Shown: piece by piece, positions 36,385 through 58,352 of the stretch | Layout of the letters: each line of letters opens with the position of its first letter | How positions within the stretch are numbered: position 1 is the stretch's first letter | Assembly: GCF_058153355.1 (NCBI RefSeq) | Contig: NZ_CM177019.1 | Length of the DNA: 64,000 nucleotides | Strand: one strand, 5' to 3' | The notes under the pieces: model-generated | What the model saw: the letters and a program-made list of their open reading frames with translations, nothing else | Databases searched by the model: none | What the model was told of the DNA's origin: nothing | Program-made: the position numbers and the translations under genes

Positions 36385-36393
36385 GATGTCCCC

Positions 36394-37413
36394 TTACTTC
36401 TTATGACGAATACGCGGGTTCACCACGCCGTACAGCAGATCGACCAGCAGGTTGACGAGGATAATCATCGTCGCCACCAGCAATACGCCACCCTGCACTA
36501 CCGGATAATCGCGGCGTTGCAGTGCGTCAATCAACCAGCGCCCCAGACCGGGCCACGAGAAGATGGTTTCGGTCAGAATCGCGCCTGCCAGCAATGTTCC
36601 CACCTGCAGGCCGATAACGGTCACCACCGGCAGCATGGCATTACGCAGCGCATGGACGATAATCACCCTAAGGCGGGTCAGCCCTTTGGCACGCGCGGTG
36701 CGGATGTAATCCTCGCCCAGCACTTCCAGCATCGAGGAGCGCGTCATACGTACAATGACCGCCAGCGGGATAGTACCCAGCACAATGGCGGGCAAAATCA
36801 TATGGGCGACAGCATCAATAAAGTTGCCGTCTTCACCCCAGATGGCGGTGTCGATCAGCATAAAACCGGTTAACGGATTGGAGTCATCGAGGAACACCAT
36901 GTCGCTCACGCGACCGGAGACGGGCGTCAGGTTCCAGTGCACTGAAACCAGCATGATCAACATCATGCCCCACCAGAAGATCGGCATGGAGTAGCCGGTC
37001 AGCGCCAGACCAACCGCCGTGTGATCGAAAATAGAACCGCGTTTAACCGCAGCCAGCACACCAACCGGAACACCGACCGCGGTCGCAAAAATCATCGCGC
37101 AGACGCCAAGTTCCAGCGTGGCCTGGAAGCGCGGCACGAACTCTTCCCATACCGGAATTCGGCTTTTCATCGAAATGCCTAAATCACCGTGCATTACGCC
37201 CCAAATGTAATGGAGATACTGCTGCCACATCGGTTTATCCAAGCCGAGTTCTGCCAGCAATTGCGCGTGACGCTCTGGGGAGATCCCACGTTCACCCGCC
37301 ATGATCATCACCGGATCGCCCGGGATCATGTGGACAAAGGCAAATGTGAGAAGGGTAATACCGATAAACGTGGGGATGACGAGTCCCAAACGTCGGAGAA
37401 TAAACTGCAACAT
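36394..37413 (-). CDS. dppB: Dipeptide ABC transporter permease DppB
   Basis: ORF 36394..37476; start set at MLQFILRRLG (339 aa). Confidence 0.85.
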   Translation of the reverse strand: MLQFILRRLGLVIPTFIGITLLTFAFVHMIPGDPVMIMAGERGISPERHAQLLAELGLDKPMWQQYLHYIWGVMHGDLGISMKSRIPVWEEFVPRFQATLELGVCAMIFATAVGVPVGVLAAVKRGSIFDHTAVGLALTGYSMPIFWWGMMLIMLVSVHWNLTPVSGRVSDMVFLDDSNPLTGFMLIDTAIWGEDGNFIDAVAHMILPAIVLGTIPLAVIVRMTRSSMLEVLGEDYIRTARAKGLTRLRVIIVHALRNAMLPVVTVIGLQVGTLLAGAILTETIFSWPGLGRWLIDALQRRDYPVVQGGVLLVATMIILVNLLVDLLYGVVNPRIRHKK

Positions 37414-37479
37414 AACCCGGATTCTCTGTAGTGACCCGCAGCCTGGAACTGCGAGTCTGTATTGCTCACAAATCAATTC

Positions 37480-37715
<236 letters not shown>

Positions 37716-37720
37716 TTTAA

Positions 37721-39328
37721 TTATTCGATAGAGACGTTTTCGAAGTGATGTTTGCCTAATGGATCAACCACATAGCCTTTAACTTCTTTGCGTACCGGTT
37801 CAAACACGGTGGAGTGAGCGATGATCAGTGCCGGAGCCTGATCGTGCATCACGACCTGTGCTTGTTTGTACAGTTCAACACGCTTGTTGTGGTCGTCGGT
37901 AGCACGCGCCGGTTGAATCAGATCTTCAAACGGTTTGTAGCACCATTTTGAGTAGTTGGAGCCTTGTTCAGAGGCAGCGCAGCTAAACAGGGTAGCGAAG
38001 AAGTTATCCGGATCCCCGTTATCGCCAGTCCAGCCCATCATTACCGTCTGGTGCTCGCCATCTTTTGCACGCTTGAGGTACTCACCCCATTCGTAGGTAA
38101 CGATTTTCGCTTGTACGCCGACTTTCGCCCAGTCTGCCTGAATCATCTCTGCCATACGACGAGCGTTCGGGTTATACGGACGTTGTACCGGCATTGCCCA
38201 CAGGTCGATGGAGAAGCCTTTTTCCAGACCCGCTTCTTTCAGCAAGGCTTTCGCTTTTTCAGGATCGTAGGTGTAGTCCTGAACATCATCGTTATAGCCC
38301 CACATGGTTGGCGGGATCAGGTTTTTCGCTGATACGCCAGCGCCCTGATACACTGCTTTGATAATCGCGTCTTTGTTCACCGCATAGGTCAGTGCCTGGC
38401 GAACTTTCACGTCATCCAGTGGTTTTTTCTGCACGTTATACGAGAGATAGCCGACGTTCAGCCCCGGCATTTCCATCAGGTTGATGGATTTATCCTGCTT
38501 CATGCGGGCGATATCTGCCGGGTTCGGGTACGGCATCACCTGGCATTCATTTTTCTGCAATTTAGCGTAACGCACGGAAGCGTCAGGGGTAATAGAGAAG
38601 ACCAGCGTATCGATCTGTGGTTTGGTGCCCCAGTAGCCATCAAACGCTTTGTAGCGAATACGGGAATCTTTTTGATATTGCTGTAACTGGAACGGGCCGG
38701 TGCCGATTGGGTTGAGGTCCAGTTTTTCCGGCGTACCGGCTTTCATCATCGCGTCAGCATATTCTTTTGACAGAATAGAGGCGAAGTCCATTGCCAGGTC
38801 AGCAAGGAACGGCGCTTCCGGGCGAGTCAGCACAAACTGAACGGTGTTGTCGTCCACCTTTTTCACTTCGCTGATCAGCTCCGGCAAGCCCATACCTTCG
38901 AAGTATTCGTAGCTGCCGCCAGAAACTTTATGGTACGGGTTTTGCGCGTTTTTCTGACGATCGAACGAGAACACCACGTCATCGGCATTCAGTTCGCGCG
39001 TCGGTTTGAATTCTTTGTTGTTATGCCACTTCACACCTTTACGCAGATGGAAGGTATAGGTTTTACCGTCTTCGCTGACTTCCCACTTTTCAGCGAGGCC
39101 CGGAATCACTTCAGTGGTGCCGATTTTAAATTCAACCAGGCGGTTATAAAGCGGTACGGAAGAGGCGTCATAGGTGGTGCCGGAGGTAAACAGCTGCGGG
39201 TTAAACCCTTCCGGAGAGCCTTCTGAGCAATAAACCAGAGTTTTAGCCTGAACACTTGCTGCGACGGTCATAGCCACCAGGCTGAGACCAAGCTTCAGCA
39301 TCCCTGACTTTTTCAAGGAAATACGCAT
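37721..39328 (-). CDS. dppA: Periplasmic dipeptide-binding protein DppA
   Basis: 535-aa ORF with signal peptide; family 5 solute-binding protein. Confidence 0.9.
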   Translation of the reverse strand: MRISLKKSGMLKLGLSLVAMTVAASVQAKTLVYCSEGSPEGFNPQLFTSGTTYDASSVPLYNRLVEFKIGTTEVIPGLAEKWEVSEDGKTYTFHLRKGVKWHNNKEFKPTRELNADDVVFSFDRQKNAQNPYHKVSGGSYEYFEGMGLPELISEVKKVDDNTVQFVLTRPEAPFLADLAMDFASILSKEYADAMMKAGTPEKLDLNPIGTGPFQLQQYQKDSRIRYKAFDGYWGTKPQIDTLVFSITPDASVRYAKLQKNECQVMPYPNPADIARMKQDKSINLMEMPGLNVGYLSYNVQKKPLDDVKVRQALTYAVNKDAIIKAVYQGAGVSAKNLIPPTMWGYNDDVQDYTYDPEKAKALLKEAGLEKGFSIDLWAMPVQRPYNPNARRMAEMIQADWAKVGVQAKIVTYEWGEYLKRAKDGEHQTVMMGWTGDNGDPDNFFATLFSCAASEQGSNYSKWCYKPFEDLIQPARATDDHNKRVELYKQAQVVMHDQAPALIIAHSTVFEPVRKEVKGYVVDPLGKHHFENVSIE

Positions 39329-39889
39329 TATTCTGCTCCAATTGTGATGTTTGTTGTTTTAACCCTTTGCAGTGGGTTGTCGCTGCCTGACCTTTTTTGT
39401 TTTTTACCCGGTCGGGTCAACGTTATGAGGTGGGGATGCCGTACTAATTAACATCAGTGTAACAGTGCGGATCCTCCATAAAATGCCCCTCGTGACCTAC
39501 AATCTGTCAACAGAATGTGAAAACGTCAATACAGCCAACCGGGATTTACATCAACGGTGAGAATCCACAAACAAAGATTAAAAAAACTTCAAACAGCTAT
39601 TTGCAGCAGAGAAATTTGTGCTACGCCAACATAACCAGAACAATCAGCGTAATATTTAGCAACATTTGGTGATTAAGTTTTATGCATTTAATGAAAAAAA
39701 TCTGAGGAAAAGGTGGATATCTGAGCGATTAATACCATGAAAGCTAAAACGCACAGCGGAAAATGCCAGCGCCAGCCATAAGTAACGCAAAAAAAAGATT
39801 TAAGCAAATATAAAAAAGACAATGGATTCTGTCACAAATCCGTTAATGGATAGTGAGATGTGGGGCGCAAATTTGGCAGGGAAATATGT

Positions 39890-41202
<1,313 letters not shown>

Positions 41203-41410
41203 CATGCCTGCAATCTGGGAAACCGGGGTAGAAAAAAACTTGCAGGCCATAACAGTATCTACGTTCAGATTTGGTCGGTGCCAGAGGATTACTCGCCACT
41301 GCGTGGCTCGCCCTGCGGGCCGTTGCTGACGCAACGTTCTCTCGCTTTGCTCGAGTCGAACCTCTCTGCCCCCGGAGGTTCTTATCCTCTTCAGGTCGCA
41401 GAAAGCAAAA

Positions 41411-41436
41411 AACCAGCCCGTAGGCTGGTTTTTCTA
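41411..41436 (-). terminator. Rho-independent terminator downstream of proK
   Basis: Hairpin AACCAGCCCGTAGGCTGGTT with U-run on the minus-strand transcript, just 3' of the tRNA. Confidence 0.5.
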
Positions 41437-41439
41437 AAT

Positions 41440-41516
<77 letters not shown>

Positions 41517-41607
41517 AATGCGGGGCGCATCTTACTGCGCAGATACGCCCTCGTCAATCCCTTAATAGCAAAATGCCTTTTGATCGGCGAGAAAGTCAGC
41601 AGGCTTC

Positions 41608-43299
41608 TTAGTTAGCCGCTGCCTCTTTTGCCTGCGGGATGTGGCACCAGTTGTTGTTTTCGTTAATTCCACCATCCGGTGAAGTATAGCCAAGACAACC
41701 CATGATGGTGTCGTACAGCTCTACGTGACGGCGTGGCACTTTCATATCAGCTTCTTTTTTCAACTGCGCAAATGCCTGCGCGTTGGCTGGATTTTCCAGA
41801 TATTTATCCGACATCCAGACCATCATCGGTACGCGGAACTGCTCCGGCGGTGCCAGTTCACGCGGTGTGCCGTGCAGGTGCTCGCGTTCGTTAATTGACT
41901 CACCGTGGTCAGCTGCGTAGAACACAATCGCTTTCTTATCGCGAACCTGATCAATCACGCTGGAAATAAAGTGATCCACATAGGTCACCGAGTTGTCGTA
42001 GGAGTTGATCATCTGCGCTTTGGTACAGCCGCTATCAACACCAATACATTCTGGCTTCCACTGCGCAAAGCTGCGCGGGTAACGCTGGGTGTAGTTAAAG
42101 TGCGACCCCTTGGTATGCAGAATGATCAGATGCTTACCATCCGGGTTGCGCCCCAGCGATTGCTGCATTTCGTCTACCAGCAACATATCATCTACCGGCT
42201 TGCCGCGGTTACGCGGTTCCGCACCAATCTGCTCACGATAAGCAATGTTGTCTGCCATCGTGTTGCTGTAGAACCACATTTCGCTTTGCATAGCGTAGAG
42301 ATCAGAACTGAATCCTAACTGCTTCAATACCGCGAAAATGTTCTGTTCTTTTAATGTGCGCTGCGGATTATCTTCTGCTCCACCCTGACGCACAAACATG
42401 CAACGCAGAGAAAGTTTGGTCGCCGTGTCACAAGAATAGCCACGAAACGCCGCCAGATTTTTCTCCTGAGCCAGTTTCGGTGTGGTATTGCGTTCATAGC
42501 CGAAAATGCCCATATGATCCCAGCGCGTGGTTTCACCAATAATGAAAACGACATATGTATCATCAACGTTTTGTGGAGCCTGGTACGTAAACTTCTTCGC
42601 AGGGTTAAGGAGAGAATTGTTATCGGAAGATTCATCGACCCGCGCCCAGGCATAAAGACCTAACGCCGAAAGCCAGTTTGATGGCAGATAAGAGTTCGCG
42701 ACAACGCCACCATAACTCGGCAAATCAACACCTGTCGCCCTCTCCACTTTCTTCTGCTGGATATCCAGCAAACGAATCGGTGCCCAAACCATAATACCTG
42801 CCAGTACGACGACCGCCAGACTCCGAATACGTTGCCCTGGGGTTCGCAGTTGTCGGAGCAAGGTGTAGCGACAGCGGTTATTCCAGATAAGGATAAGAGG
42901 CAATGCGCTTACGGCGATTAACCAGAGAATAAAGTTCAGACCAACAACTTCTTTTGACAGGTCGATATCGGTGGTCATGACGGATGCGATGATGCCATAA
43001 CCAATGACCACATTAAGGAAAGTCATGTAATAGCTGGCACCTGCAGAAAAGAGCACCACCAGCGATGCCAGAATTCGCCAGCTGCGGCGGCCAAACAGCG
43101 AAAGCAGACGCAGTAAAAAGAAGGTCACCAGTACGGTAGCGACCAGTTCAACAACAGCAGAAACGCCTTTCCAGACGGTAAAATCGTGCGCATAGCTGCC
43201 GAAGCGGCGGTAAAAAACCGCGCCATTCATAAAAAGGCCAATATAGATTGCAAGCAAAAAGCTCAGCTTCTGCTGTGTAATCGATTTGATGTATCTCAT
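41608..43299 (-). CDS. eptB: Kdo2-lipid A phosphoethanolamine transferase
   Basis: ORF 41608..43332; start set at [10 protein letters not shown] (563 aa); N-terminal TM segments plus sulfatase-like domain. Confidence 0.85.
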
Positions 43300-43622
43300 G
43301 CAAACAAACCCTGGACAAACAGGTGATAACACCCTGCTTAGTGGCTTTTCAGGCCCGGCAGGGGAAAAGTGCGGAGGTAGTCAGATTAGTAAAATCTACA
43401 CGCGCGAATAAGTAGACCACAGCAAAGGGAAAAAGTGTGGGGAAAGAGTGTGCATGAAGCACAAATTTACAAAAATGCAAGTTTGAAAAGAGACTATAGC
43501 GTTACAAAAAGCAGTAAAAAGGGCCAGTTCACTGGCCCAAATTTTACGCGTCATTGTTTATACATTGCGTTGAAGCGTTTGATTTACACTAAGGCTAAAG
43601 CCCAGTAGCTCGCGGCAGGTCA

Positions 43623-44831
43623 TTAAAGGGAGCCATGCGCCTCACGCAACATTTTCTGCTCTGGCTGGCGAATCGTCGTAGAAAGCGCCAGTGACAGAAT
43701 CAGCAGGGCGAAAATCACGTAGAATGTCACATAGAATCCGCCAAACAGTGAAGCGATAATCGAACCACAAATGCTGCCGATACCGAAACCGAGGTAAATC
43801 ACACCGTAGTTTTTTGCCAGATTATTTAGGCCGAAGAACTCACTGACCAGTGACGGGAACACAGTGATAGTGCCGCCGAAGTTAAATGCCACGCAGGCAA
43901 TCGCTGCAAAGAACGTCACTGCATTCAATGGGGCAAACAGCAGGGCCGCCATGCCCACCAGCGAAATGACCTGACCAATGGTGATAACACGGATACGGGC
44001 GATTTTGTCAGACAGAATGCCCAGCACCAGACGACCAGAAAGGTTGGCGATGGAAATAACCGTCACAGCATTGGCTGCGGAAATTGCATCAAGATGCGCC
44101 AGACTTTGAGCGATATCTTTCGCCACGCCAATCACATACAGGCCACTCATGCAGGCGGTCAGGAACATAACTGCTAACATCCAGTACTGCGGTTTACGCA
44201 TCGACTCTGCCAGCGTGTAATCCTTCTCCACCACGCCATTGCTGGTTTTCACTTCCTGCTTCGGCGCATCTTTCATTAATGTTGCGCCAAAGACAATCAT
44301 CACCAGTACAATCGCGCCCCAAATAACAAAGGTTTTTTCCAGACCGACCGTTTCCAACAGTTGCGTATCGATAAATTTGAAACCCAGACTACCAAGTCCA
44401 TAAGAACCAATAGCGAACGCAGAGATGAGTCCCTTACGCTCCGGGAACCACTTCACGCAGTTAGAGAGCGTCAACAGGTAACCCGCACCATCCGCCAGAC
44501 CAACCAACACACCGGCGCTTAACCACAGCATCATCAGGTTGTTGGAATGTGCTGTCAGGAAGAAACCTAATCCCAGCAAAATGCCGGAAGCCATAGTGAC
44601 GCGTTTAACACCAAAACGTTCTTGCAATTTGCCCGCAACAGAAGACGAAATTGCCAGCCCCAGACTTAACAAGCCGAAAGAGAAAGCAACCTGGCTTACC
44701 GGAGCCCCCAGCTTGGCAGAAAGCGCGCCGTTAAACAGACTCCAGGTATAAACCGACCCCAGGGCAAACTGGGTAATGATAGTACCGATGAGTGTCAGCC
44801 AGCGAGTACGCTGATAATTTGAAGGTGTCAT
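43623..44831 (-). CDS. yhjX: MFS transporter (oxalate/formate antiporter-like)
   Basis: ORF 43623..44876; start set at MTPSNYQRTRW (402 aa). Confidence 0.85.
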   Translation of the reverse strand: MTPSNYQRTRWLTLIGTIITQFALGSVYTWSLFNGALSAKLGAPVSQVAFSFGLLSLGLAISSSVAGKLQERFGVKRVTMASGILLGLGFFLTAHSNNLMMLWLSAGVLVGLADGAGYLLTLSNCVKWFPERKGLISAFAIGSYGLGSLGFKFIDTQLLETVGLEKTFVIWGAIVLVMIVFGATLMKDAPKQEVKTSNGVVEKDYTLAESMRKPQYWMLAVMFLTACMSGLYVIGVAKDIAQSLAHLDAISAANAVTVISIANLSGRLVLGILSDKIARIRVITIGQVISLVGMAALLFAPLNAVTFFAAIACVAFNFGGTITVFPSLVSEFFGLNNLAKNYGVIYLGFGIGSICGSIIASLFGGFYVTFYVIFALLILSLALSTTIRQPEQKMLREAHGSL

Positions 44832-45059
44832 GGCAGTATTCCTGCAGTAATAAAAAGGAAAAATCTCTGCTGACAACCATAACGAAGTGCACTTTATGCC
44901 TGGGGAAAAACGGCATGAAATGCCATCAGAACGGAATGAAATGCATTAGTTCAGGAATGAATGACTCGACGATTATTCATCAAATTTATTATTTAGTAAG
45001 TTAGTCCCCACTATCGCCACATTAGTTGTTATTTATGGGTTTCAATTGTATCTATAACG

Positions 45060-45765
45060 TTAAAATCTGGCACTAACCCCCATCGTATACAGATAGTCGC
45101 TATTGTTAGTGGTATTTTCTGCCTGAGATAGCGCCGCATAGGCGGCAATATTTTGATTGAGCAACATATCAGCGCCTAAGGTGACATCCAGCCAGTTGCC
45201 GTTCTGGTTTGTCGCCGTCATCCGGCTTAAGCCTGATTGCGCCTTCCAGATATTCTCGCCAAATTGCTGGTTATAGCTGATTTGCGCCCAGGGTCGGAGA
45301 TCGCCAAGCCGGGAGTCAACACGCCAGCCTAAGGTACTCACACTGGCATGCCATAACGGATCAGTCAGTGTAGTAGTACTGTCGCCAAACTCGTTATACA
45401 TCGAGGTGGTTGTACCATCGTAATGTAATGCCGCGACCGGGCCGGTTGTAACCTGTTCATATAAAGGAAAATTCCAGCCCATACTCATACTGCTGGTCAC
45501 ATCCACAGGGGTTTCTTCCGCCAGATTGACTTCCAGTCCCAGCGCCCTTTGGCTACTTTGAATACGTTGCGACAGAATATCTGTTGTAATCAGGTTGATG
45601 ATCGCTATCCCAGGTGTAGCGCTCTGTGGAATGTCCGGGTTGCGTATCAACGATATATTCTTGTTGCCAGGCGTAAGCTGTGTTGAGAAAAAAGGCACTG
45701 ATTACCACGCTCGCCAGCAGGCTTAACTGCCAGCGACCACCGCTTTTTTTTATGATCATTAACAC
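45060..45765 (-). pseudogene. yhjY: Autotransporter beta-domain-like protein YhjY, apparently frameshifted
   Basis: Two overlapping minus-strand ORFs (45553..45765 with signal peptide; 45060..45698) in different frames; frame change near 45590..45610. Confidence 0.5.
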
Positions 45766-45916
45766 GACTCCAGGGAAGAGCCGAATTCGGCAATATTATT
45801 GTCATTGTATGAAGGATATCGGGCATAGTAGCCCTGTATTAAATATTGACTTTTTCACCGATGCGTCAAGAAAAGGGGCTGAAATTTTTACGATCGGGTA
45901 CATAGCGAGGGAAAGT

Positions 45917-46480
45917 ATGGAACGTTGCGGCTGGGTGAGTCAGGACCCGCTTTATATTGCCTACCATGATAATGAGTGGGGCGTGCCTGAAACTGACAGT
46001 AAAAAACTGTTCGAAATGATCTGCCTTGAAGGGCAACAAGCAGGGTTATCGTGGATCACCGTCCTCAAAAAACGCGAAAACTATCGCGCCTGCTTTCATC
46101 AGTTCGATCCGGTGAAGGTGGCTGCAATGCAGGAAGAGGATGTCGAAAGACTGGTACAGGACGCCGGGATTATCCGCCATCGCGGGAAAATTCAGGCAAT
46201 TATTGGTAATGCGCGGGCGTACCTGCAAATGGAACAGAACGGCGAACCGTTTGCCGACTTTGTTTGGTCGTTTGTCAATCATCAACCACAGGTGACACAA
46301 GCCACAACGTTGAGCGAAATCCCTACATCTACGCCCGCCTCCGACGCTCTATCTAAAGCCCTGAAAAAGCGTGGTTTTAAGTTTGTTGGTACCACAATCT
46401 GTTACTCCTTTATGCAGGCATGTGGGCTGGTGAATGATCATGTGGTTGGCTGCTGTTGCTATCCGGGAAATAAACCATGA
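45917..46480 (+). CDS. tag: 3-methyladenine DNA glycosylase I
   Basis: ORF 45680..46480; start set at MERCGWVSQDPLY (187 aa). Confidence 0.85.
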   Translation: MERCGWVSQDPLYIAYHDNEWGVPETDSKKLFEMICLEGQQAGLSWITVLKKRENYRACFHQFDPVKVAAMQEEDVERLVQDAGIIRHRGKIQAIIGNARAYLQMEQNGEPFADFVWSFVNHQPQVTQATTLSEIPTSTPASDALSKALKKRGFKFVGTTICYSFMQACGLVNDHVVGCCCYPGNKP

Positions 46481-46917
46481 TTCGGGAAGCGCAACGTTCA
46501 GAACTCCCCGCGATCCTCGAATTGTGGCTGGAAAGTACAACCTGGGGGCATCCCTTTATAAAAGCGAATTACTGGCGTGATTGCATTCCGCTGGTGCGGG
46601 ATGCCTATCTTGCCAACGCGCAAAACTGGGTCTGGGAAGAAGACGGTAAGCTTCTCGGTTTTGTCAGCATTATGGAAGGCCGATTTCTGGCTGCAATGTT
46701 TGTCGCACCGAAGGCCGTCAGACGCGGTATTGGTAAGGCGCTAATGCAGTATGTGCAGCAGCGCCATCCCCATCTGATGCTGGAGGTTTATCAAAAAAAT
46801 CAACCGGCGATAGATTTTTACCATGCGCAGGGTTTTCACATTGTCGACTGCGCATGGCAGGATGAAACCCAACTACCCACCTGGATTATGAGCTGGCCGG
46901 TGGTTCAAACGCTGTAA
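46477..46917 (+). CDS. yiaC: GNAT-family N-acetyltransferase
   Basis: 146-aa ORF overlapping tag stop by 4 nt. Confidence 0.8.
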
Positions 46918-49219
46918 GTGTCAGTTCCGGACCGTTGTATTTTTCCAGCCATGCCAGCGCCGTATTACCCGCACAGCCATTCCCCAGCCGCGAGCTGGGG
47001 AGATCTTTGGTCAGAACGTTCACCGCGCCGTTTTTACAAATACCGTCAGCGGTTAAATCCAGATCCGGCCATGCCCCTTCATGAATGCAAATCACGCCAG
47101 GTTTAATTCCCTCGCTAATGACCGCTCCGGCAAGAATTTGCCCGCGTGCGTTCCACAACCGAACAATATCGCCATCTTGTATGCCGCGCGCCTGGGCATC
47201 GTCAGGATGAATGGTGACAGGCTCACGATTTGCCACCGCGTACAATTCGCGCAGAGAACTGTAATTCAGCTGGCTGTGCAGACGATGTGCCGGATGAGCA
47301 GAAAGTACCTGCAACTGTTCCGGTTCGGCATTGCCCTGCCATTCGTCCGGCTCCAGCCACATTGGATGCCCAGGGCAATCCGGATAAGCGTAATCGGCAA
47401 TACGCTGCGAGAAGATTTCAATCTTGCCGCTGGCGGTTTTTAATGGATGCGCCTGCGGATCGCGGCGAAAATCAGCGAAGCGAATAAACCGCTCACTGTC
47501 CGGGTTTTCCGGCATCTCAATTAACTGGTTGGCCTGCCAGAATTCAGCAAAAGGCGGCAATTCAACCCGCTGGCTTGTCCCACGTTGCCGGGCGACGTTA
47601 TAAAACGTTTCCAGCCATTGCAGCTCACTTTTCCCTTCCGTAAACCGCGCATAGCCGCCCTTCTCCCAACGTTCACTCAACTCGGCAAAGACATCAAAAT
47701 CATTACGCGCTTCATAACGTGGAGGCACCACTTGCTTCATCGGCATCAGATGCTGATTACTGTAATCGCCGGTCATGGTGAGGTCATTACGCTCAAACGA
47801 GGTGGTTGCAGGGAGGACGATATCGGCGTGTTTCGCCGCTGCCGTCCAGAAGCATTCGGAGATCACCACCAGCTCCGGTTTTTGCCAGGCACGAATCAGA
47901 CGATTGGTATCCTGATGATGAGTAAAGTTGGCGCCGCCCGCCCACCAGATAAAACGAATATCCGGGAAGTGACGATTCATGCCATTGTGTTGGTATGCAC
48001 CGCCAGGGTTTTCCAGAGCTTCAACAATACGGGCTACAGGGATTTTATCTACCGCATCGGTGCCACCTGGCAAGCTGCCCTGCATAGATGAAAGCACCGC
48101 AGCGCGGCGCGTAGGGTTACCACCATTGGCAAAATGGTAAGAAAGACCAAAGCCCCCGCCAGGCGTGCCGATTTGCCCTAACATTGCTGCCAGGGTGACG
48201 ATCATCCAGTGTTTTTGCTCACCAAACTGCTGGCGCTGCATTCCCCAGCCAGCCATCAGCATGGTGGTATTTTGGTGAAAAATAGCCGCCAGTTCGCGGA
48301 TTTTCTCTGCGTTAATCCCACAAATCTCTGCCGCCCATTCGGCATTTTTCGCTATTCCGTCACTCTCGCCCAGCAAATAAGAGGCGAAGACGTCATAACC
48401 TGTGGTGCAACGCGCCAGAAACGCTTCGTCGTGCCAGCCATTTTCCACCAGCGTATGGGCGATCCCCAGCATCAGCGCAACATCGGTGCCCATGTGCGGT
48501 GCCACCCACTCCATTTTATCGCCAAAGAAATCGACGGTTTCCGATCGCATTGGATCAATGCAGATCAGCTTTTTCCCGCTGTCACGCAGTGCGGAAAAGT
48601 AAGAAAGCCCCTGCTCATCGGATGCATTCCACGCAATTTTCAGCGTATTGAGTGGGTTAGCACTCCATAGCACCACGACATCGCTATGTTCCAATACCAA
48701 CGGCCAACTGGTTTGCTGTTGATAAACTTCGCTGCCCCCCACGACATACGGCATGATCGCCTGTGCTGCACCGGTCGAATAATCCCCCAGATGCCCAGTA
48801 TAACCGCCTGCCAGCGCCATATAGCGTTGTAATAATGTCGAGGCCTTATGCAGCACGCCGTTTGAACGCCAGCCGTAGGAACCAGCAAAAATCGATGCCG
48901 GACCATAAGCCTCACGAATACGTTTATGTTGTTGGTGAATAAGCTCCAGCGCCTCATCCCAACTCACGCGAACAAATTCATCCTGCCCACGAATGCCTTG
49001 CGGGTTTTCCGGTGACGCGAGAAAGCCCTTGCGCACCATTGGAAATCGTACCCGTGTTTTGCTGTGAACCTGGTCGCGAACCGCACTCTGCAAGGAGTTT
49101 TTCATTTCTGTGACTAACGCGCCACGCGAGCTAAACACGGTTTCGCCGTCGGTTTCAACCAGCATGGGCCCCCAGTGAGCGGCAGTAAGAACAGAATAAC
49201 GTGAGGATGAGTTGGCCAA
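46886..49219 (-). CDS. bisC: Biotin sulfoxide reductase (molybdopterin oxidoreductase)
   Basis: 777-aa ORF, DMSO-reductase family. Confidence 0.9.
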
Positions 49220-49371
49220 ACCGAAGGCTCCTGAAAGATTAGATGTATTGAGCAGTTAAATATTACTTACAAATTTCCGAGTATTCCCAGGAATAATCTT
49301 CATGTTCACGCGGCATAATCTCCCGCCACGGAACCCGTGGCAAAGAATAAAAAGGTTATTAAGGATTAACA

Positions 49372-50031
49372 ATGAAGAAACGTGTTTATCTTATTGCCGC
49401 CGTAGTGAGTGGCGCTCTGGCGGTATCTGGCTGCACCACTAACCCTTACACAGGTGAACGCGAAGCAGGTAAATCTGCTATCGGTGCAGGTCTGGGCTCT
49501 CTCGTTGGCGCGGGTATTGGTGCGCTCTCTTCTTCGAAGAAAGATCGCGGTAAAGGCGCGCTGATTGGCGCAGCAGCGGGTGCAGCTCTGGGCGGCGGCG
49601 TTGGTTATTACATGGATGTGCAGGAAGCGAAGCTACGTGACAAAATGCGCGGCACTGGTGTTAGCGTAACCCGCAGCGGGGATAACATTATCCTCAATAT
49701 GCCGAACAATGTAACCTTCGACAGCAGCAGCGCGACCCTGAAACCGGCAGGCGCTAACACCCTAACCGGCGTGGCAATGGTGCTGAAAGAGTATCCGAAA
49801 ACGGCGGTTAACGTGATTGGTTATACCGACAGCACGGGTGGTCACGACCTGAACATGCGTCTCTCCCAGCAGCGTGCGGATTCCGTTGCCAGCGCGTTGA
49901 TCACCCAGGGCGTGGACGCCAGCCGCATCCGTACTCAGGGCCTTGGCCCGGCTAACCCAATCGCCAGCAACAGCACCGCAGAAGGTAAGGCGCAAAACCG
50001 CCGTGTAGAAATTACCTTAAGCCCGCTGTAA
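49372..50031 (+). CDS. yiaD: OmpA-family outer-membrane lipoprotein
   Basis: 219-aa ORF; lipobox LAVSGC; Gly-rich segment; C-terminal OmpA-like domain. Confidence 0.8.
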   Translation: MKKRVYLIAAVVSGALAVSGCTTNPYTGEREAGKSAIGAGLGSLVGAGIGALSSSKKDRGKGALIGAAAGAALGGGVGYYMDVQEAKLRDKMRGTGVSVTRSGDNIILNMPNNVTFDSSSATLKPAGANTLTGVAMVLKEYPKTAVNVIGYTDSTGGHDLNMRLSQQRADSVASALITQGVDASRIRTQGLGPANPIASNSTAEGKAQNRRVEITLSPL

Positions 50032-50134
50032 TCCCTTTCATGCCAGGTGATGCAAAAATCACCTGGCATTCTTCAGTTTTCCTTCATCATATTTCAGGCT
50101 AAGGTGATCGCCTTATCAGTGAATGGAGAGAAGA

Positions 50135-51109
50135 ATGAAGCCGTCCGTTATCCTCTACAAAGCCTTACCTGATGATTTACTGCAACGCCTGCAAGAGCAT
50201 TTCACCGTTCATCAGGTGGCAAACCTCAGCACACAAACCGTCGAACAAAATGCAGCAATTTTTGCCGAAGCTGAAGGTTTACTGGGTTCAAACGAGAATG
50301 TTGATGCCGCATTGCTGGAAAAAATGCCGAAACTGCGTGCCACATCAACGATCTCCGTCGGCTATGACAATTTTGATGTCGATGCGCTTACCGCCCGAAA
50401 AATTCTGCTGATGCACACACCAACCGTATTAACAGAAACCGTCGCCGATACGCTGATGGCGCTGGTGTTGTCTACCGCTCGTCGGGTTGTGGAGGTAGCA
50501 GAACGGGTAAAAGCAGGCGAATGGACCGCGAGCATAGGCCCGGACTGGTACGGCACTGACGTTCACCATAAAACACTGGGCATTGTCGGGATGGGACGGA
50601 TCGGCATGGCGCTGGCACAACGTGCGCACCTTGGCTTCAACATGCCCATCCTCTATAACGCGCGCCGCCACCATAAAGAAGCAGAAGAACGCTTCAACGC
50701 CCGCTACTGCGATTTGGATACACTGTTACAAGAGTCAGATTTCGTTTGCCTGATCCTGCCGTTAACTGATGAAACGCATCATCTGTTTAGCGCAGAACAA
50801 TTCGCCAAAATGAAATCCTCCGCCATTTTCATTAATGCCGGACGTGGTCCAGTGGTTGACGAAAATGCACTGATTGCAGCATTGCAGAAAGGGGAAATTC
50901 ACGCTGCCGGGCTGGATGTATTCGAACAAGAGCCACTGCCCGTAGATTCTCCGTTGCTCTCAATGGCCAACGTCGTCGCCGTACCGCATATTGGTTCTGC
51001 CACCCATGAGACGCGTTATGGCATGGCCGCCTGCGCCGTGGATAATTTGATTAATGCGTTACAGGGAAAAGTTGAGAAGAACTGTGTGAATCCGCACGTC
51101 GCGGAATAA
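50135..51109 (+). CDS. ghrB: Glyoxylate/hydroxypyruvate reductase B
   Basis: ORF 50123..51109; start at MKPSVILYK (324 aa); D-2-hydroxyacid dehydrogenase family with GxGxxG. Confidence 0.85.
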
Positions 51110-51127
51110 CCGCGACTGCGGGAAGTA

Positions 51128-51153
51128 AAGCCCGATAATCGCCCGGGCTTTTA
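51128..51153. terminator. Candidate bidirectional terminator between ghrB and yiaF
   Basis: Hairpin AAGCCCG...CGGGCTT flanked by A/T runs between convergent genes. Confidence 0.4.
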
Positions 51154-51157
51154 CTCT

Positions 51158-51868
51158 TTATTGGGTTGCAGTGACTGCTGTAGTCCAGGCCTGATTAAAC
51201 GCCTGATGCTGTGCCGGTAATGGCGCAATCAGTTTGTTATATTCACTTGCCTGCTGCGAAGTCGGGAACTGGATGCCATTTGCGACAAAACTCACCTGAG
51301 TACCTTGCTGAGCAATGTAGTCTCCAACCATCACCAGTTGTTGCGTGAAAGTTTGTGCCGCCGGAATCAACGGTTGCAAAGCATCAGCTGGCGTCGTTAC
51401 CACTTTGGTGAATGCCTGATCAAAGACCGGTTTCAGGTCATCGCTCTGTTTTAGCGCAGAGTGCGCAGCATCGGCCTGCAACTTCGCATTTTGCAACTGT
51501 TGCGCCAGTACGCCCAGAGAACCGTTCATTTCACGCAGTGGGCCGCTTTGCGTAACGTAATCCTGCGGTACGCGAATTGCGTTAACGCTGTCTACAACCG
51601 GGCGCAGACCGGAATCCATCGCCTGATTCACCTGCTGTGAATAACCATACAGAATCGCGTAATCAGAGACAAAAGGACCAAACTGTTTTTTCTGATCGGC
51701 AGTCAGGGTTGGTAGACGTTCACCGCTACGCATCACTGTATTCTGCAGGAAGTCGATAAACGCTTTACGCTGATCGCCTTCTTTATCAAAACACCCACTC
51801 AGGCTAACTACCATTAATAACGCCGCAAGAGGCGCAAACCAGCGAGAGCAGGACTTTCCTGTCGCCAT
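51158..51868 (-). CDS. yiaF: Lipoprotein YiaF
   Basis: ORF 51158..51988; start set at MATGKSCSRWFAPLAALLMVVSLSGC (236 aa) with lipobox. Confidence 0.75.
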   Translation of the reverse strand: MATGKSCSRWFAPLAALLMVVSLSGCFDKEGDQRKAFIDFLQNTVMRSGERLPTLTADQKKQFGPFVSDYAILYGYSQQVNQAMDSGLRPVVDSVNAIRVPQDYVTQSGPLREMNGSLGVLAQQLQNAKLQADAAHSALKQSDDLKPVFDQAFTKVVTTPADALQPLIPAAQTFTQQLVMVGDYIAQQGTQVSFVANGIQFPTSQQASEYNKLIAPLPAQHQAFNQAWTTAVTATQ

Positions 51869-52301
51869 TTTCTTACTCCTTTCACCCAAAAAAAGCGCAC
51901 AACGACACACGCGTGTCTGACGTGACAAGGATAGTCCAGGACAGGCTTGCAGGATACCCTTTCTACGTAATCTTCCTGGTAAAATCATGGAGAAAATGAA
52001 ACAAGGTTAATTTGTTGTTTCATTGTTAAAAAATGATAGTGCCGTTGCTTTTTTTGTAGCCAGAGATTTACGCCTTCTCAGAACGTTAGATTTTCGAAAT
52101 CTTTACAAACCGGGAGTGGTAAGAGATATATCGGCATTTATCAGATCGTTAGGTGGCTATAAGTCACGCTAAATGACTGGCTGAATCGAATCATAGCCAG
52201 AGCATGCCCTGACTACACCCCGCTGTGTCTGTTTTTCCCGACTATTCTTAATGAGCTTCGATGCAATTCACGATCCCGCAGTGTGATTTGAGGAGTTTTC
52301 A

Positions 52302-52592
52302 ATGGAATATAAAGATCCCATGCATGAGCTGTTGAGCAGCCTGGAACAGATTGTTTTTAAAGATGAAACGCAGAAGATTACTCTGACGCATAGAACAACG
52401 TCCTGTACCGAGATTGAGCAGTTACGTAAAGGTACGGGGTTAAAAATCGATGATTTCGCTCGGGTTTTGGGCGTTTCCGTCGCCATGGTAAAGGAATGGG
52501 AATCCCGACGCGTTAAGCCTTCAAGTGCCGAACTAAAATTGATGCGTCTGATTCAAGCTAACCCAGCGTTAAGTAAGCAGTTGATGGAATAG
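52302..52592 (+). CDS. yiaG: HTH-type (Cro/C1-like) small regulator
   Basis: 96-aa ORF. Confidence 0.7.
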   Translation: MEYKDPMHELLSSLEQIVFKDETQKITLTHRTTSCTEIEQLRKGTGLKIDDFARVLGVSVAMVKEWESRRVKPSSAELKLMRLIQANPALSKQLME

Positions 52593-52712
52593 ACTTTTAT
52601 CCACTTTATTGCTGTTTACGGTCCTGATGACAGGACCGTTTTCCAACCGATTAATCATAAATATGAAAAATAATTGTTGCATCACCCGCCAATGCGTGGC
52701 TTAATGCACATC

Positions 52713-52872
52713 AACGGTTTGACGTACAGACCATTAAAGCAGTGTAGTAAGGCAAGTCCCTTCAAGAGTTATCGTTGATACCCCTCGTAGTGCATTTCCT
52801 TTAACGCTTCAAAATCTGTAAAGCACGCCATATCGCCGAAAGGCACATTTAAATTATTAAAGGTAATACACT
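52713..52872 (+). promoter_or_regulatory. cspA long 5' leader (cold-responsive regulatory region)
   Basis: About 160 nt of non-coding leader before the cspA start; role inferred from known cspA biology. Confidence 0.5.
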
Positions 52873-53085
52873 ATGTCCGGTAAAATGACTGGTATCGTAA
52901 AATGGTTCAACGCTGACAAAGGCTTCGGCTTCATCACTCCTGACGATGGCTCTAAAGACGTGTTCGTACACTTCTCTGCTATCCAGAACGATGGTTACAA
53001 ATCTCTGGACGAAGGTCAGAAAGTGTCCTTCACCATCGAAAGCGGCGCTAAAGGCCCAGCAGCTGGTAACGTAACCAGCCTGTAA
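52873..53085 (+). CDS. cspA: Major cold-shock protein CspA
   Basis: 70-aa [40 protein letters not shown]... with RNP1/RNP2 motifs. Confidence 0.95.
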
Positions 53086-53112
53086 TCTCTGCTTAAAAGC
53101 ACAGAATCTAAG

Positions 53113-53142
53113 ATCCCTGCCAAATGGCGGGGATTTTTTTAT
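53113..53142 (+). terminator. Rho-independent terminator of cspA
   Basis: Hairpin ATCCCTGCC/GGCGGGGAT followed by TTTTTTT. Confidence 0.6.
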
Positions 53143-53273
53143 TTGTTTATTCAGGAAATGAATAATCGTTCGCGTAATAAAATCTATTATTATTTTTGTG
53201 AAGAATAAATTTGGGTGCAATGAGAATGCGCAACGCCGTAAGAAAGGCGGGAATAACTTCCCGCCGAAGACTC

Positions 53274-53426
53274 TTACTCTTTCAATTTGCAGGCTAAAAA
53301 CGCCGCCAGCTCATAATTCTCCTGTTTAATATGCAATTCACACAGTGAATCTCTTATCATCCAGGTGAAAAATAAAAGCGTGAAACAAATCACTATTAAA
53401 GAAAGTAATCTATATTTCTGCGGCAT
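53274..53426 (-). CDS. hokA: Hok-family type I toxin HokA
   Basis: 50-aa ORF MPQKYRLLSLIVICFTLLFFTWMIRDSLCELHIKQENYELAAFLACKLKE. Confidence 0.75.
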   Translation of the reverse strand: MPQKYRLLSLIVICFTLLFFTWMIRDSLCELHIKQENYELAAFLACKLKE

Positions 53427-53486
53427 TCCCAGCCTCCTGTGTTGATTTCCAACGAGTAAGAGGCTAACCTTATGGTGTTCAGGCAT
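53274..53486 (-). CDS. mokA: Overlapping leader reading frame MokA ending at the hokA stop
   Basis: 70-aa ORF containing the hokA frame; called by analogy with hok/mok/sok loci. Confidence 0.5.
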   Translation of the reverse strand: MPEHHKVSLLLVGNQHRRLGMPQKYRLLSLIVICFTLLFFTWMIRDSLCELHIKQENYELAAFLACKLKE

Positions 53487-53704
53487 AGGGTAGCCTCACT
53501 TTGATTTATAGTCAGGTGGGGCTTTTCTCTGTCTGCCTTTCGGTGAATACCTGAGACAAACAGTCTCAAGCACCCGTGGCTATTCTAGCTTAATAAGTTC
53601 TTTTCTTCTCCTTGATATAATCCTAAAAAAATCTCATAAAATTAATATATGAGACAATCTTTATTCAGCAGAAGATTATTAAAGGTTGCTCTATTATTTA
53701 GCGA

Positions 53705-53735
53705 TAAAAAAGCCTGCCAGATGGCAGGCTTTTTA
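53705..53735. terminator. Bidirectional terminator downstream of glyS
   Basis: Hairpin AGCCTGCCAGATGGCAGGCT flanked by AAAAAA and TTTT. Confidence 0.5.
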
Positions 53736-53747
53736 ATAACGACGTTA

Positions 53748-55817
53748 TTACTGCAACAGCGAAATATCCGCAACTCGCAGGAATAATTCGCGCAGTTTCT
53801 CCAGCATGGTAAGACGGTTGATTCGCAATTCTTTGTCATCAACCATGACCATCACTTTATCGAAGAAGGCATCAACCGGTTCACGCAGCTCAGCCAGTTC
53901 GACCAGCGCATCCTGGTAACGACCTTCAGCAAAGTACGGCTCTAGCTTGTCACGTAGCACCACAACCTGCATCGCCAGTTTAATTTCTTCCGGCTCTTTC
54001 AGAGTAGAGGCATTCACGCGGTCGCTCAGCACTTCGTCAGATTTCGCCAGAATGTTAGATACACGCTTGTTCGCCGCCGCCAGTGCTGCAGCTGCATCCA
54101 GGGTACGGAAGTGCGATACCGCTTTCATTCGGGCATCGAAATCAGCCGGACGAGTCGGACGACGCGCCAGTACCGCCTGGATGGTGTCAACGGTGTAACC
54201 TTCGTCCTGATACCAGGCGCGGAAGCGACCGAGCATAAAGTCGATAACATCATCAACCACGTTGGCATTAGTCAGCTTATCGCCATACAGACGCACTGCT
54301 TCTTCGGTCAGGGTTTGCAGGTCAAGATTGAGGTTCTTCTCAACGATAATACGCAGCACGCCAAGTGCGGCACGACGCAACGCAAACGGGTCTTTGTCGC
54401 CTTTCGGATGCTGGCCGATACCGAAGATACCCGCCAGAGTATCCATCTTGTCAGCTATCGCCAGCGCACAGGCTACCGGGTTAGACGGCAGGTCATCACC
54501 GGCAAAGCGCGGCTGATACTGCTCGTTCAGCGCCACTGCGACATCTTCCGCTTCACCATCGTGACGCGCGTAGTGCATACCCATAACGCCCTGAGTGTCG
54601 GTGAACTCGAAGACCATGTTAGTCATCAGGTCACACTTAGACAGCAGGCCCGCACGGGTGGCATGATTCACGTCAGCGCCAATCTGTTCAGCAATCCAGC
54701 CAGCCAGCGCCTGAATGCGGTCAGTTTTGTCGCGCAGCGTACCCAGTTGTTGCTGGAACAGCACGGTTTGCAGGCGCGGCAGGTTATCTTCCAGACGTTT
54801 TTTACGGTCGGTATTGAAGAAGAACTCGGCATCCGCCAGACGTGGACGAACGACTTTCTCGTTACCAGAGATAATTTGCTGCGGATCTTTCGATTCGATA
54901 TTGGCAACGAAGATAAAGTTCGGCAGCAGTTTGCCGTCGTTCGCATACACCGGGAAGTATTTCTGGTCACCTTTCATGGTGTAAACCAGCGCTTCAGACG
55001 GCACCGCGAGGAATTTCTCTTCGAATTTTGCGGTCAGCACAACCGGCCATTCCACCAGCGAAGCGACTTCTTCCAACAGGCTTTCGCTTAAGTCAGCGTT
55101 ACCGCCAATCTTACGCGCCGCTTCTTCGGCATCGGCTTTAATCTTCGCCTTACGTTCTTCGTAATCGGCGATGACTTTCCCGCGCTCACGCAGAATTTCC
55201 GGATACTGATCAGCATTGTCGATAGTGAATTCCGGCTCGCCCATAAAGCGGTGGCCGCGAATCACGCGATCGGACTGAATGCCCAGAATGGTTGCCGGAA
55301 TGACTTTGTCGCCCAGCAGCAGGGTCACGGTGTGCACCGGACGCACGAAGTGCACGTCGCTTGCACCCCAACGCATCAGTTTCGGGATCGGCAGTTTCGC
55401 CAGCGAAGTCGCAACCATATTCGGCAACAGTGCTTCAGTGCTTTCGCCCTTCACGTGGGCGCGATACAGCAGCCATTCGCCTTTATCGGTAGTCAGACGC
55501 TCAGCCTGGTCAACGGTAATACCGCAACCACGCGCCCAGCCTTCTGCCGCTTTGCTCGGTTTGCCTTCAGCGTCGAACGCCTGGGCAATCGCCGGGCCGC
55601 GTTTTTCGATTTCACGATCCGGTTGTGCTTCCGCCAGGTTAGCTACTTTCAGCGCCAGACGACGCGGAGCAGCAAACCATTGAACGGTGCCATGTGCGAG
55701 GCCAGCGTTATCCAGCTCCGCAGTAAAGTTCGCAGCAAAGGACTCAGCCAGGCTGCGCAGTGCTTTTGGTGGCAGCTCTTCAGTGCCGATTTCCACCAGA
55801 AAAGTTTTCTCAGACAT
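53748..55817 (-). CDS. glyS: Glycine--tRNA ligase beta subunit
   Basis: 689-aa ORF. Confidence 0.95.
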
Positions 55818-55826
55818 AGCCGCCTC

Positions 55827-56738: not shown

Positions 56739-56832
56739 ATTATTTCGTGCTGGATACGTGTGGATTTAAAGGAAGGGATCAGTATACCCGCTGGATGGAA
56801 GATATACAGTACGAAACGGGAAAAAGCAGGGC

Positions 56833-57141
56833 TTAACGCATGGAAAGATGCAAAAAATGGCCATCCGCGTCAAAAGAACAGACAAACTGCTCTTTCCGGA
56901 AGGTATAACCACGCATTTCGTAGCTTCCCTGGAACTGTTCGAAGGCGGTGACGTCGATTTTTTGCTCGCCGGTGTTATAACGTTTTGCCGCCTGATCCTT
57001 GCATAACGCTTCCATATTCAACGAACGCAGAGGATCAACCTTTACCCGTTGTGCTTTCTGCACGGGTGGCGGTGTAGAACAACCCACTAGCGCCATAAGC
57101 ACTATAAGCGCCATTGCCGGAAAGAAAGAGTTCATCATCAT
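56833..57141 (-). CDS. ysaB: Small lipoprotein YsaB
   Basis: About 100-aa ORF with signal peptide and lipobox LVGC; exact start uncertain. Confidence 0.6.
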   Translation of the reverse strand: MMMNSFFPAMALIVLMALVGCSTPPPVQKAQRVKVDPLRSLNMEALCKDQAAKRYNTGEQKIDVTAFEQFQGSYEMRGYTFRKEQFVCSFDADGHFLHLSMR

Positions 57142-57315
57142 TAAATTACCGTCTGGTTTGCAGGTGAGTCTTATTATTTATATCGGTATAGTGGCTGATA
57201 TCTTACGAATTTCCTTAAGCCTCTATAAGCTGTAGTGATAAAACTCAGATTATTCCAGTGCGCCAACCGAATGATTTATCGGTCAGACTTTTTTTAACCA
57301 GATACAGAGACACAG

Positions 57316-58311: not shown

Positions 58312-58314
58312 ATA

Positions 58315-58345: not shown

Positions 58346-58352
58346 ATGTGAA

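What the first reader, a model, noticed from the sequence alone, without database searches (positions are those of the whole stretch)
45553..45698. yhjY appears split by a frameshift
The signal-peptide-bearing N-terminal ORF (45553..45765) ends ...DHQPDYNRYSVATYSK*, while the remaining 212-aa ORF (45060..45698) continues in another frame with ...LITTDILSQRIQ. The frame change falls near 45590..45610. This is either a genuine pseudogene or a single-base sequencing error.
Basis: seen in the sequence. Interest (0 to 1): 0.35.

Follow-up and report, generated by a model that had tools for sequence, protein, structure and literature searches.

The report
Real one-base frameshift inactivating yhjY
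One extra base splits the E. coli outer-membrane barrel gene yhjY into a signal-peptide stub and an unexportable barrel; the change recurs in two separate public sequencing runs, so it is a genuine, recent, strain-private pseudogene, which is an ordinary result.

Summary
On the minus strand, yhjY (ATG 45759 to stop 45060) carries one extra A at window 45582, between codon 59 (AAC) and codon 60 (GAT). Deleting that base restores an uninterrupted 232-aa YhjY.

The insertion is not in a homopolymer. It is absent from all 5,412 complete E. coli genomes that match the site. It is present, base for base, in assemblies of two different SRA runs (SRR31441161 and SRR8656992). One of those contigs is 100.000% identical to the window over 14,464 nt. 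None of the other 47 reference genes mapped onto the window has a frame-breaking gap. A random sequencing error is therefore very unlikely.

The repaired protein is identical to an intact E. coli protein (EPP4994089.1), from which it differs by 18 synonymous and 0 non-synonymous changes. Intact alleles show pN/pS of 0-0.14. The break is therefore recent, in a gene otherwise under purifying selection.

The break separates the Sec signal peptide and a conserved N-terminal motif from the autotransporter-type beta-barrel, so the allele is most likely null. There is no sign of programmed frameshifting or phase variation at this site. This is an ordinary lineage-private pseudogene of low interest.

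The parts
45060..45759 (-). yhjY pseudogene as a whole (700 nt instead of 699): ATG 45759-45757, original stop TAA 45062-45060
   Evidence: Aligns end to end with annotated 699-nt yhjY genes of E. coli 2013C-4282 and SK1144 with a single gap.
45582..45582 (-). The inserted base (A on the coding strand, T on +), between codon 59 AAC and codon 60 GAT. The neighbouring bases are C and G, so it is not in a homopolymer.
   Evidence: Gap column 219 in alignment A1. Deleting it restores a single ORF. Position 178 of the CDS in pairwise alignments. Absent from 5,412 complete genomes.
45553..45759 (-). N-terminal fragment ORF. It encodes 68 aa from the annotated ATG (70 aa from GTG 45765): signal peptide, residues 31-59 of mature YhjY, then 9 out-of-frame residues RYSVATYSK and TAG 45555-45553.
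45670..45759 (-). Codons 1-30, the Sec-type signal peptide MIIKKSGGRWQLSLLASVVISAFFLNTAYA. It has a basic N-region, a hydrophobic core and an A-x-A cleavage motif. The invariant WQQEY motif follows.
   Evidence: Read from the sequence. A30 is invariant, and A28 and W31 are nearly invariant, in 28 orthologues.
45060..45581 (-). The part of yhjY now out of frame with its start: codons 60-232. It includes the predicted linker helix, the autotransporter beta-domain match and the C-terminal ...GVSARF.
   Evidence: PF03797 E=4.8e-12 on residues 68-189 of the 212-aa ORF. TIGR01414 is above its cut-off. The terminal F is invariant.
45060..45698 (-). Mechanical 212-aa ORF (GTG 45698). Its first 39 codons are alternate-frame sequence over the signal-peptide region, and it has no signal peptide of its own.
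   Evidence: The same product was called by the gene finder in Logan assemblies of SRR31441161 and SRR8656992.
45744..45751 (-). A8 tract at codons 3-5 of yhjY. It has the normal length here. It is polymorphic (A7/A9) in about 1.4% of complete E. coli genomes and is not the cause of this frameshift.

Best explanation
This is a genuine, recent, lineage-private 1-nt insertion (A at window 45582) in yhjY. yhjY encodes a conserved ~230-aa enterobacterial outer-membrane protein of unknown function, consisting of a signal peptide, a short conserved N-terminal segment and an autotransporter-type beta-barrel.

Shown:
- The insertion shifts the frame after codon 59.
- Translation from the native ATG ends 9 codons later at TAG 45555-45553.
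- The barrel-encoding part is left in another frame.

Inferred:
- The 68-aa product would be exported and cleaved to a 38-residue periplasmic peptide, which is probably degraded.
- Any product of the downstream ORF lacks a signal peptide, so it cannot reach the Bam machinery.
- The allele is therefore a null, and no polar effect on yhjX is expected. yhjX lies 228 nt downstream as a separately annotated gene. I recall, but did not check, that it has its own promoter.
For: - **Site:** a single gap against intact alleles. Deleting 45582 restores the ORF.
- **Reproducibility:** the 212-aa downstream ORF is found exactly in Logan assemblies of two different SRA runs, SRR31441161 and SRR8656992. L003 is 100.000% identical to window 41235-55698, with 0 mismatches and 0 gaps in 14,464 nt. 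L007 and L008 are exact matches to window 44860-45898.
- **Sequence context:** the neighbouring bases are C and G, so this is not a homopolymer-type error site.
- **Assembly quality:** 48 reference CDSs map onto the window, and only yhjY has a frame-breaking gap or internal stops.
- **Private to the lineage:** none of 5,412 complete E. coli genomes has the insertion. Relatives that share the exact BisC or YhjX protein carry a 232-aa yhjY.
- **Recent:** the repaired protein is identical to intact EPP4994089.1, with 18 synonymous and 0 non-synonymous differences. pN/pS among 8 alleles is 0-0.14.
- **Family:** PF03797 and TIGR01414 are above their cut-offs. About 230-aa orthologues occur across Enterobacteriaceae, with invariant residues on both sides of the break: Y58, I61, L62, R65, I66.
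Against: - I could not inspect raw reads. The two SRA runs could in principle be the same isolate or even the same read set re-deposited, and one may be the source of the window's own assembly.
- The null phenotype is inferred from sequence, not measured.
- The function of YhjY is unknown, so the consequence of its loss is unknown.
Confidence: 0.9

Rival explanations
1. Sequencing, assembly or polishing error: the strain really has an intact yhjY and the extra A is an artefact of the deposited assembly.
For: A single-base indel is the commonest assembly artefact. About 1.4% of complete E. coli genomes differ in the A8 tract of the same gene, and some of those differences may be such errors. 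I could not see reads.
Against: The same base is present in contigs assembled independently from two SRA runs, with 0 differences over 14.5 kb. Those contigs break at the IS621-like and IS66 copies, as short-read de Bruijn assemblies do (inference). The site is C-A-G, not a homopolymer. None of the other 47 mapped genes shows an indel that breaks the frame.
Confidence: 0.05
2. Recoding: the gene is still expressed through +1 ribosomal frameshifting, for example a pause at the rare AGA codon that the insertion creates (AAC AGA UAU), giving some full-length YhjY.
For: The insertion creates an AGA codion directly at the break. AGA is a rare arginine codon in E. coli, and hungry or rare codons are known to promote +1 shifts; both points are from my own knowledge. 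The downstream frame is open across the whole 146-nt overlap.
Against: The frameshift is not conserved: 0 of 5,412 genomes have it, and all orthologues are single ORFs. tRNA-Asn on AAC cannot re-pair on ACA in the +1 frame. No Shine-Dalgarno-like stimulator is visible upstream in GATAGCGATCATCAACCTGATTAC. There is no prfB-like CUU UGA C motif. Any bypass would be at background level.
Confidence: 0.02
3. Phase variation: the indel is a reversible ON/OFF switch of a surface protein at a slippage-prone repeat.
For: yhjY encodes a predicted surface-exposed barrel, and the gene does contain a polymorphic A7/A8/A9 tract at codons 3-5.
Against: The insertion at 45582 is not in that tract or in any simple repeat, and the A tract has the normal A8 length here. 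The same state is seen in both runs. No other genome shows variation at this site.
Confidence: 0.02

Closest known systems
E. coli K-12 YhjY (b3548, UniProt P37663), annotated 'autotransporter outer membrane beta-barrel domain-containing protein' and formerly 'putative lipase'
   Same: It is the same locus between tag and yhjX. Nucleotide identity is 97.4%. The same signal peptide, N-terminal motif and barrel appear once the extra base is removed.
   Different: The window's copy has one extra base after codon 59 and cannot encode the 232-aa protein.
Intact allele EPP4994089.1 (E. coli GCA_052594755.1, contig ACAQMM010000016.1)
   Same: Its protein sequence is identical to the repaired window sequence.
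   Different: It has no insertion. It differs by 18 synonymous substitutions, its surrounding DNA is only about 96.6% identical, and it has a fimbrial operon between yhjX and eptB.
Other disrupted yhjY alleles in public data
   Same: These are independent inactivations of the same gene. They include a 176-aa frameshift product (P0079, 177 member sequences; P0078), ISVsa5 inside yhjY in strain BM28, a 146-aa partial product in Shigella flexneri (P0095), and A7/A9 variants of the 5' A tract.
   Different: They have different positions and mechanisms. None shares the insertion at codon 59/60.
Beta-domains of GDSL-lipase autotransporters (Photorhabdus luminescens Lip-1; I recall EstA and ApeE as the type examples)
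   Same: YhjY matches the C-terminal half of the autotransporter beta-domain profiles (PF03797 positions 119-253 of 255; TIGR01414 positions 285-432 of 432). A published remote-homology search pairs YhjY with Lip-1 (PMC6637259).
   Different: YhjY has no passenger or lipase domain, only about 57 residues between the signal peptide and the profile match. No sequence relative has a solved structure.
prfB-type programmed +1 frameshift
   Same: A +1 shift would be needed to read through.
   Different: There is no conserved frameshift, slippery codon or stimulator.

Membership tests
Frameshift pseudogene (inactivated orthologue of a functional gene) | An intact orthologue sits at the same locus in close relatives | tested here: met
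   A 699-nt yhjY lies between tag and yhjX in 2013C-4282 and SK1144, and in relatives sharing the exact BisC or YhjX protein. 5,419 of 5,426 complete genomes match at least 80% of the gene.
Frameshift pseudogene (inactivated orthologue of a functional gene) | An indel whose length is not a multiple of three causes a premature stop | tested here: met
   There is a +1 nt insertion at 45582, followed by a stop 9 codons later at 45555-45553.
Frameshift pseudogene (inactivated orthologue of a functional gene) | The lesion is real, meaning reproducible in independent sequence data | tested here: met
   The sequence is identical in Logan assemblies of SRR31441161 and SRR8656992. Raw reads could not be inspected.
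Frameshift pseudogene (inactivated orthologue of a functional gene) | Loss of the protein product | not testable with these tools
   This needs proteomics or an immunoblot. It is inferred from the separation of the signal peptide from the barrel.
Autotransporter beta-barrel domain proteins (PF03797 / TIGR01414), YhjY subfamily | A profile match above the curated cut-off | tested here: met
   PF03797 scores 46.6 bits against a cut-off of 26. TIGR01414 scores 21.6-22 bits against a cut-off of 16.
Autotransporter beta-barrel domain proteins (PF03797 / TIGR01414), YhjY subfamily | An N-terminal Sec signal peptide on the same polypeptide as the barrel | tested here: not met
In the window they are in different frames.
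Autotransporter beta-barrel domain proteins (PF03797 / TIGR01414), YhjY subfamily | A C-terminal aromatic residue (OMP beta-signal) | tested here: met
   The protein ends in ...GVSARF, and F232 is invariant in 28 orthologues.
Autotransporter beta-barrel domain proteins (PF03797 / TIGR01414), YhjY subfamily | A 12-stranded barrel with a helix in the pore | tested here: inconclusive
   The AlphaFold2 model has mean pLDDT 47.6 and pTM 0.34, which is too poor to use. It predicts a helix at residues 58-71 followed by strands. A published review also reports deformed models for YhjY (PMC7383365).
Classical type Va autotransporter | A secreted passenger domain N-terminal to the barrel | tested here: not met
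   Only about 57 residues lie between the signal-peptide cleavage site and the profile match, and there is no other Pfam domain.
Programmed +1 ribosomal frameshift | The frameshift is conserved among orthologues | tested here: not met
   0 of 5,412 genomes have it. Orthologues are single ORFs.
Programmed +1 ribosomal frameshift | A slippery P-site codon that can re-pair in the +1 frame, plus a stimulator | tested here: not met
   The context is UAC AAC AGA UAU. AAC to ACA does not re-pair, and no SD-like element lies upstream. This was judged by inspection.
Phase-variable contingency locus | The indel lies in a homopolymer or short tandem repeat | tested here: not met
   The insertion lies between C and G. 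The gene's A8 tract (45744-45751) is unchanged.

The most novel reading that the evidence does not exclude
The break is not a neutral accident. On this reading it is one of many independent, positively selected losses of YhjY in E. coli and Shigella. Other examples are the 176-aa frameshift allele with 177 member sequences, the Shigella flexneri truncation, IS insertions and the A-tract variants. The benefit could be that the surface barrel is a phage, colicin or immune target. The evidence does not exclude this, but the strong purifying selection on intact alleles (pN/pS 0-0.14) and the rarity of disrupted alleles in complete genomes argue against widespread selection for loss.
Probability: 0.08. 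Interest if true: 0.3.

Novelty: already known. Interest (0 to 1): 0.07.

Why it matters
It matters little beyond correct annotation. The locus should be annotated as a frameshifted yhjY pseudogene, not as two hypothetical genes, and it should not be 'corrected' as a sequencing error. The allele is a convenient natural null of a conserved, RpoS-dependent (PMC2907692) but uncharacterised outer-membrane barrel. It is also a clonal marker for this lineage. Because the insertion sits on an otherwise undegraded allele, the strain would be a clean background for asking what YhjY does.

Tried and rejected
- **Structure.** AlphaFold2 on a 28-sequence alignment gave pLDDT 47.6. That is too poor for fold searches, so none were run. 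A sequence search of the PDB gave only a spurious hit at E=0.78.
- **Identifying the isolate.** No paper in the library mentions either SRA run. No complete E. coli genome is closer than 98.6% at yhjY or shares the IS66 junction.
- **Finding an otherwise identical haplotype without the insertion.**
  - Contigs sharing the exact BisC protein fall into a group with the 212-aa ORF and a larger group with the 232-aa gene. The representative of the intact group (ERR1512490) differs at 42 other sites in 6.1 kb.
  - The exact YhjX protein is too common to be informative.
  - The second contig carrying the identical intact protein has a 400-aa yhjX like L004, so it is probably the same divergent strain (inference).
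- **N-terminal fragment.** The 68- and 70-aa products are not in the protein collection, probably because gene callers prefer the overlapping 212-aa ORF, so they could not be used as a marker.
- **Explanations rejected.**
  - Programmed frameshift: no conservation and no slippery site.
  - Phase variation: the site is not in a repeat.
  - Shigella-like genome decay as context: only two IS copies and no other broken reference gene apart from IS-interrupted yiaA in 64 kb.
- **Scans not run.** I did not scan genome contigs or metagenome contigs. The question of real versus error was already answered by the two SRA runs.

Full report
**What is in the sequence**

The window is an Escherichia coli chromosomal segment running treF ... 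bcs operon ... dpp operon - eptB - yhjX - yhjY - tag - yiaC - bisC ... glyQS ... xylBA.
- 45553..45765, 70 aa from a GTG, ending ...DHQPDYNRYSVATYSK*.
- 45060..45698, 212 aa, containing ...LITTDILSQRIQ.

The start annotated in E. coli is the ATG at 45759, which gives a 232-aa protein when the gene is intact.

**The lesion**

Alignment with the intact yhjY genes of strains 2013C-4282 and SK1144 shows one gap column. The window reads GATTACAAC-A-GATATT where the others read GATTACAAC-GATATT. The extra base is A on the coding strand, at window 45582, between codon 59 (AAC) and codon 60 (GAT). Deleting 45582 restores one uninterrupted ORF. The inserted A sits between C and G, so the site is not a homopolymer.

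**Real mutation or sequencing error?**

Four results point to a real mutation.
- The 212-aa downstream ORF is present as an exact sequence in the 15-billion-protein collection. It comes from Logan assemblies of two different SRA runs, SRR31441161 and SRR8656992, each on a 17,577-nt contig.
- The SRR31441161 contig is 100.000% identical to window 41235-55698, with 14,464 nt, 0 mismatches and 0 gaps. The 1,039-nt pieces from both runs are exact substrings of the window and include the extra A.
- By calculation, the 17,577-nt contig spans window 41235-58811. It therefore ends just inside an IS621-like copy and an IS66-family copy. That is how short-read de Bruijn assemblies break, which suggests accurate short reads. 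This last point is an inference.
- I mapped 48 annotated CDSs of a reference genome onto the window. yhjY is the only one with a frame-breaking gap or internal stops, so the assembly is not riddled with indel errors.

I could not inspect raw reads or run metadata. A small residual probability (about 5%) therefore remains that the runs are not independent of each other or of the assembly.

**How old and how widespread**

The insertion appears private to this lineage.
- An 81-nt probe centred on the insertion matches 5,412 complete E. coli genomes. None matches at 99% or more, and the best hits are 80/81, missing exactly that base.
- Contigs that encode exactly the same BisC protein fall into two groups. 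A small group has the 212-aa ORF. A larger group of 18 places, for example ERR1512490, has an intact 232-aa yhjY. The ERR1512490 haplotype differs from the window at 42 other sites in 6.1 kb, so it is not the immediate ancestor.

The break also appears recent.
- The repaired protein is identical to an intact NCBI protein (EPP4994089.1). Its gene differs from the window by 18 substitutions, all synonymous.
- Among eight E. coli alleles, pN/pS is 0-0.14.
- yhjY is therefore normally under purifying selection, and the window's copy has not accumulated any further degeneration.

**What the gene is and what the break does**

YhjY belongs to a family of 229-235-aa proteins conserved in Escherichia, Salmonella, Citrobacter, Kosakonia, Enterobacter and relatives. 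Its features are:
- A typical Sec signal peptide, MIIKKSGGRWQLSLLASVVISAFFLNTAYA, with A30 invariant.
- A highly conserved N-terminal segment (WQQEY...RYTWD..HQP.Y.DIL..RI).
- A match to the C-terminal half of the autotransporter beta-domain profiles: PF03797 at 46.6 bits against a cut-off of 26, and TIGR01414 above its cut-off.
- An invariant C-terminal Phe, as in outer-membrane beta-barrels.

There is no passenger domain.

Its function is unknown. The literature lists it as an uncharacterised or 'putative lipase' protein whose barrel resembles that of Photorhabdus Lip-1 (PMC6637259). It is reported as poorly modelled (PMC7383365) and as RpoS-dependent in O157:H7 (PMC2907692). My AlphaFold2 model was also unusable, with pLDDT 47.6, and no sequence relative has a solved structure.

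The insertion falls inside the conserved N-terminal segment, between invariant Y58 and I61/L62. Translation from the native start ends after nine wrong residues. The barrel is left in another frame without a signal peptide. I infer a null allele:
- The stub would be exported and cleaved to a 38-residue peptide.
- Any product of the downstream ORF would stay in the cytoplasm.
- A polar effect on yhjX, which lies 228 nt downstream as a separate gene, is not expected.

**Rivals**

- **Programmed +1 frameshifting.** The insertion does create a rare AGA codon at the break. However, the frameshift is not conserved in any other genome. AAC cannot re-pair in the +1 frame, and no stimulator is visible.
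- **Phase variation.** The site is not repetitive. The gene's real repeat, an A8 tract at codons 3-5, has its normal length here.

**Context: yhjY is broken now and then elsewhere**

- The A tract is A8 in 5,256 of 5,361 complete genomes, A7 in 46 and A9 in 28.
  - A7 puts an upstream ATG in frame and is annotated as a 247-aa protein.
  - A9 is annotated from a downstream start, giving 219 aa.
- Other disruptions include a 176-aa frameshift product with 177 member sequences, a 146-aa partial product in Shigella flexneri, and an ISVsa5 insertion in lab strain BM28.

Occasional loss of this gene is therefore already visible in public data, and the case here is one more, at a new position.

**Verdict**

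The open alternative is resolved in favour of a genuine pseudogene (confidence about 0.9). It is an ordinary, strain-private, recent frameshift in an uncharacterised but conserved outer-membrane protein gene, of low interest and a known kind.

Noticed in passing
window 58783-61251: An IS66-family element of 2,469 bp: tnpA 58858-59286, tnpB 59283-59630 and transposase 59650-61221, all on the + strand. It has an 8-bp target-site duplication and is inserted 16 nt into yiaA, cutting off yiaA's native start. A TTG inside the IS end gives a 152-aa substitute ORF. No complete E. coli genome has this junction, and the nearest IS copies are only about 97% identical and mostly on ~100-kb plasmids.
   Followed up: partly
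window ~39946-41270: An IS110-family IS621-like element (326-aa transposase at 40173-41153 +; NCBIfam 'IS110 family RNA-guided transposase'). It is inserted between dppA and the RtT/tRNA-Pro(CGG) region and abuts a REP-derived naRNA4 match at 39898-39979. IS621-like copies occur in 2,250 of 5,426 complete genomes.
   Followed up: partly
window 45744-45751 (minus strand) and loci L009-L012: The A8 tract at codons 3-5 of yhjY is length-polymorphic in E. coli: A8 in 5,256, A7 in 46 and A9 in 28 of 5,361 complete genomes. A7 brings an upstream ATG into frame (247-aa annotation). A9 leaves no upstream start (219-aa annotation). ECCWS199 (A9) and S1 (A7) are otherwise identical in the 681 nt downstream of the tract, and O157:H7 strains occur in all three classes. 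The variation could be slippage mutations or homopolymer sequencing errors.
   Followed up: partly
public proteins P0078, P0079, P0092, P0095, P0074; locus L013:2501-4537: There are other independent yhjY disruptions. These are a frameshift near codon 154 giving a 176-aa product (177 member sequences), another near codon 146, a 146-aa partial product in Shigella flexneri, a single contig with an apparent frameshift near codon 70 (inferred from the P0074 sequence), and ISVsa5 inserted in yhjY of lab strain BM28.
   Followed up: partly
window 56833-57141 (ysaB); window ~11966-12069: ysaB carries a 9-nt in-frame indel relative to strain 2013C-4282. Seven hypothetical genes that lie between yhjJ and kdgK in that strain are absent from the window, and kdgK's last 7 nt differ.
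   Followed up: no
locus L004:12456-17941: The strain with the identical intact YhjY protein (GCA_052594755.1) has a chaperone-usher fimbrial operon between yhjX and eptB that the window lacks.
   Followed up: no
window 36000-56000: No complete RefSeq E. coli genome is nearly identical to this window. Single genes are 94.8-100% identical to the reference genome used for the gene-by-gene mapping (strain 2013C-4282), in a mosaic pattern, and the search tool's 20-kb summary identity is 96.1%. The source lineage therefore has no close complete-genome relative in the collection.
   Followed up: partly
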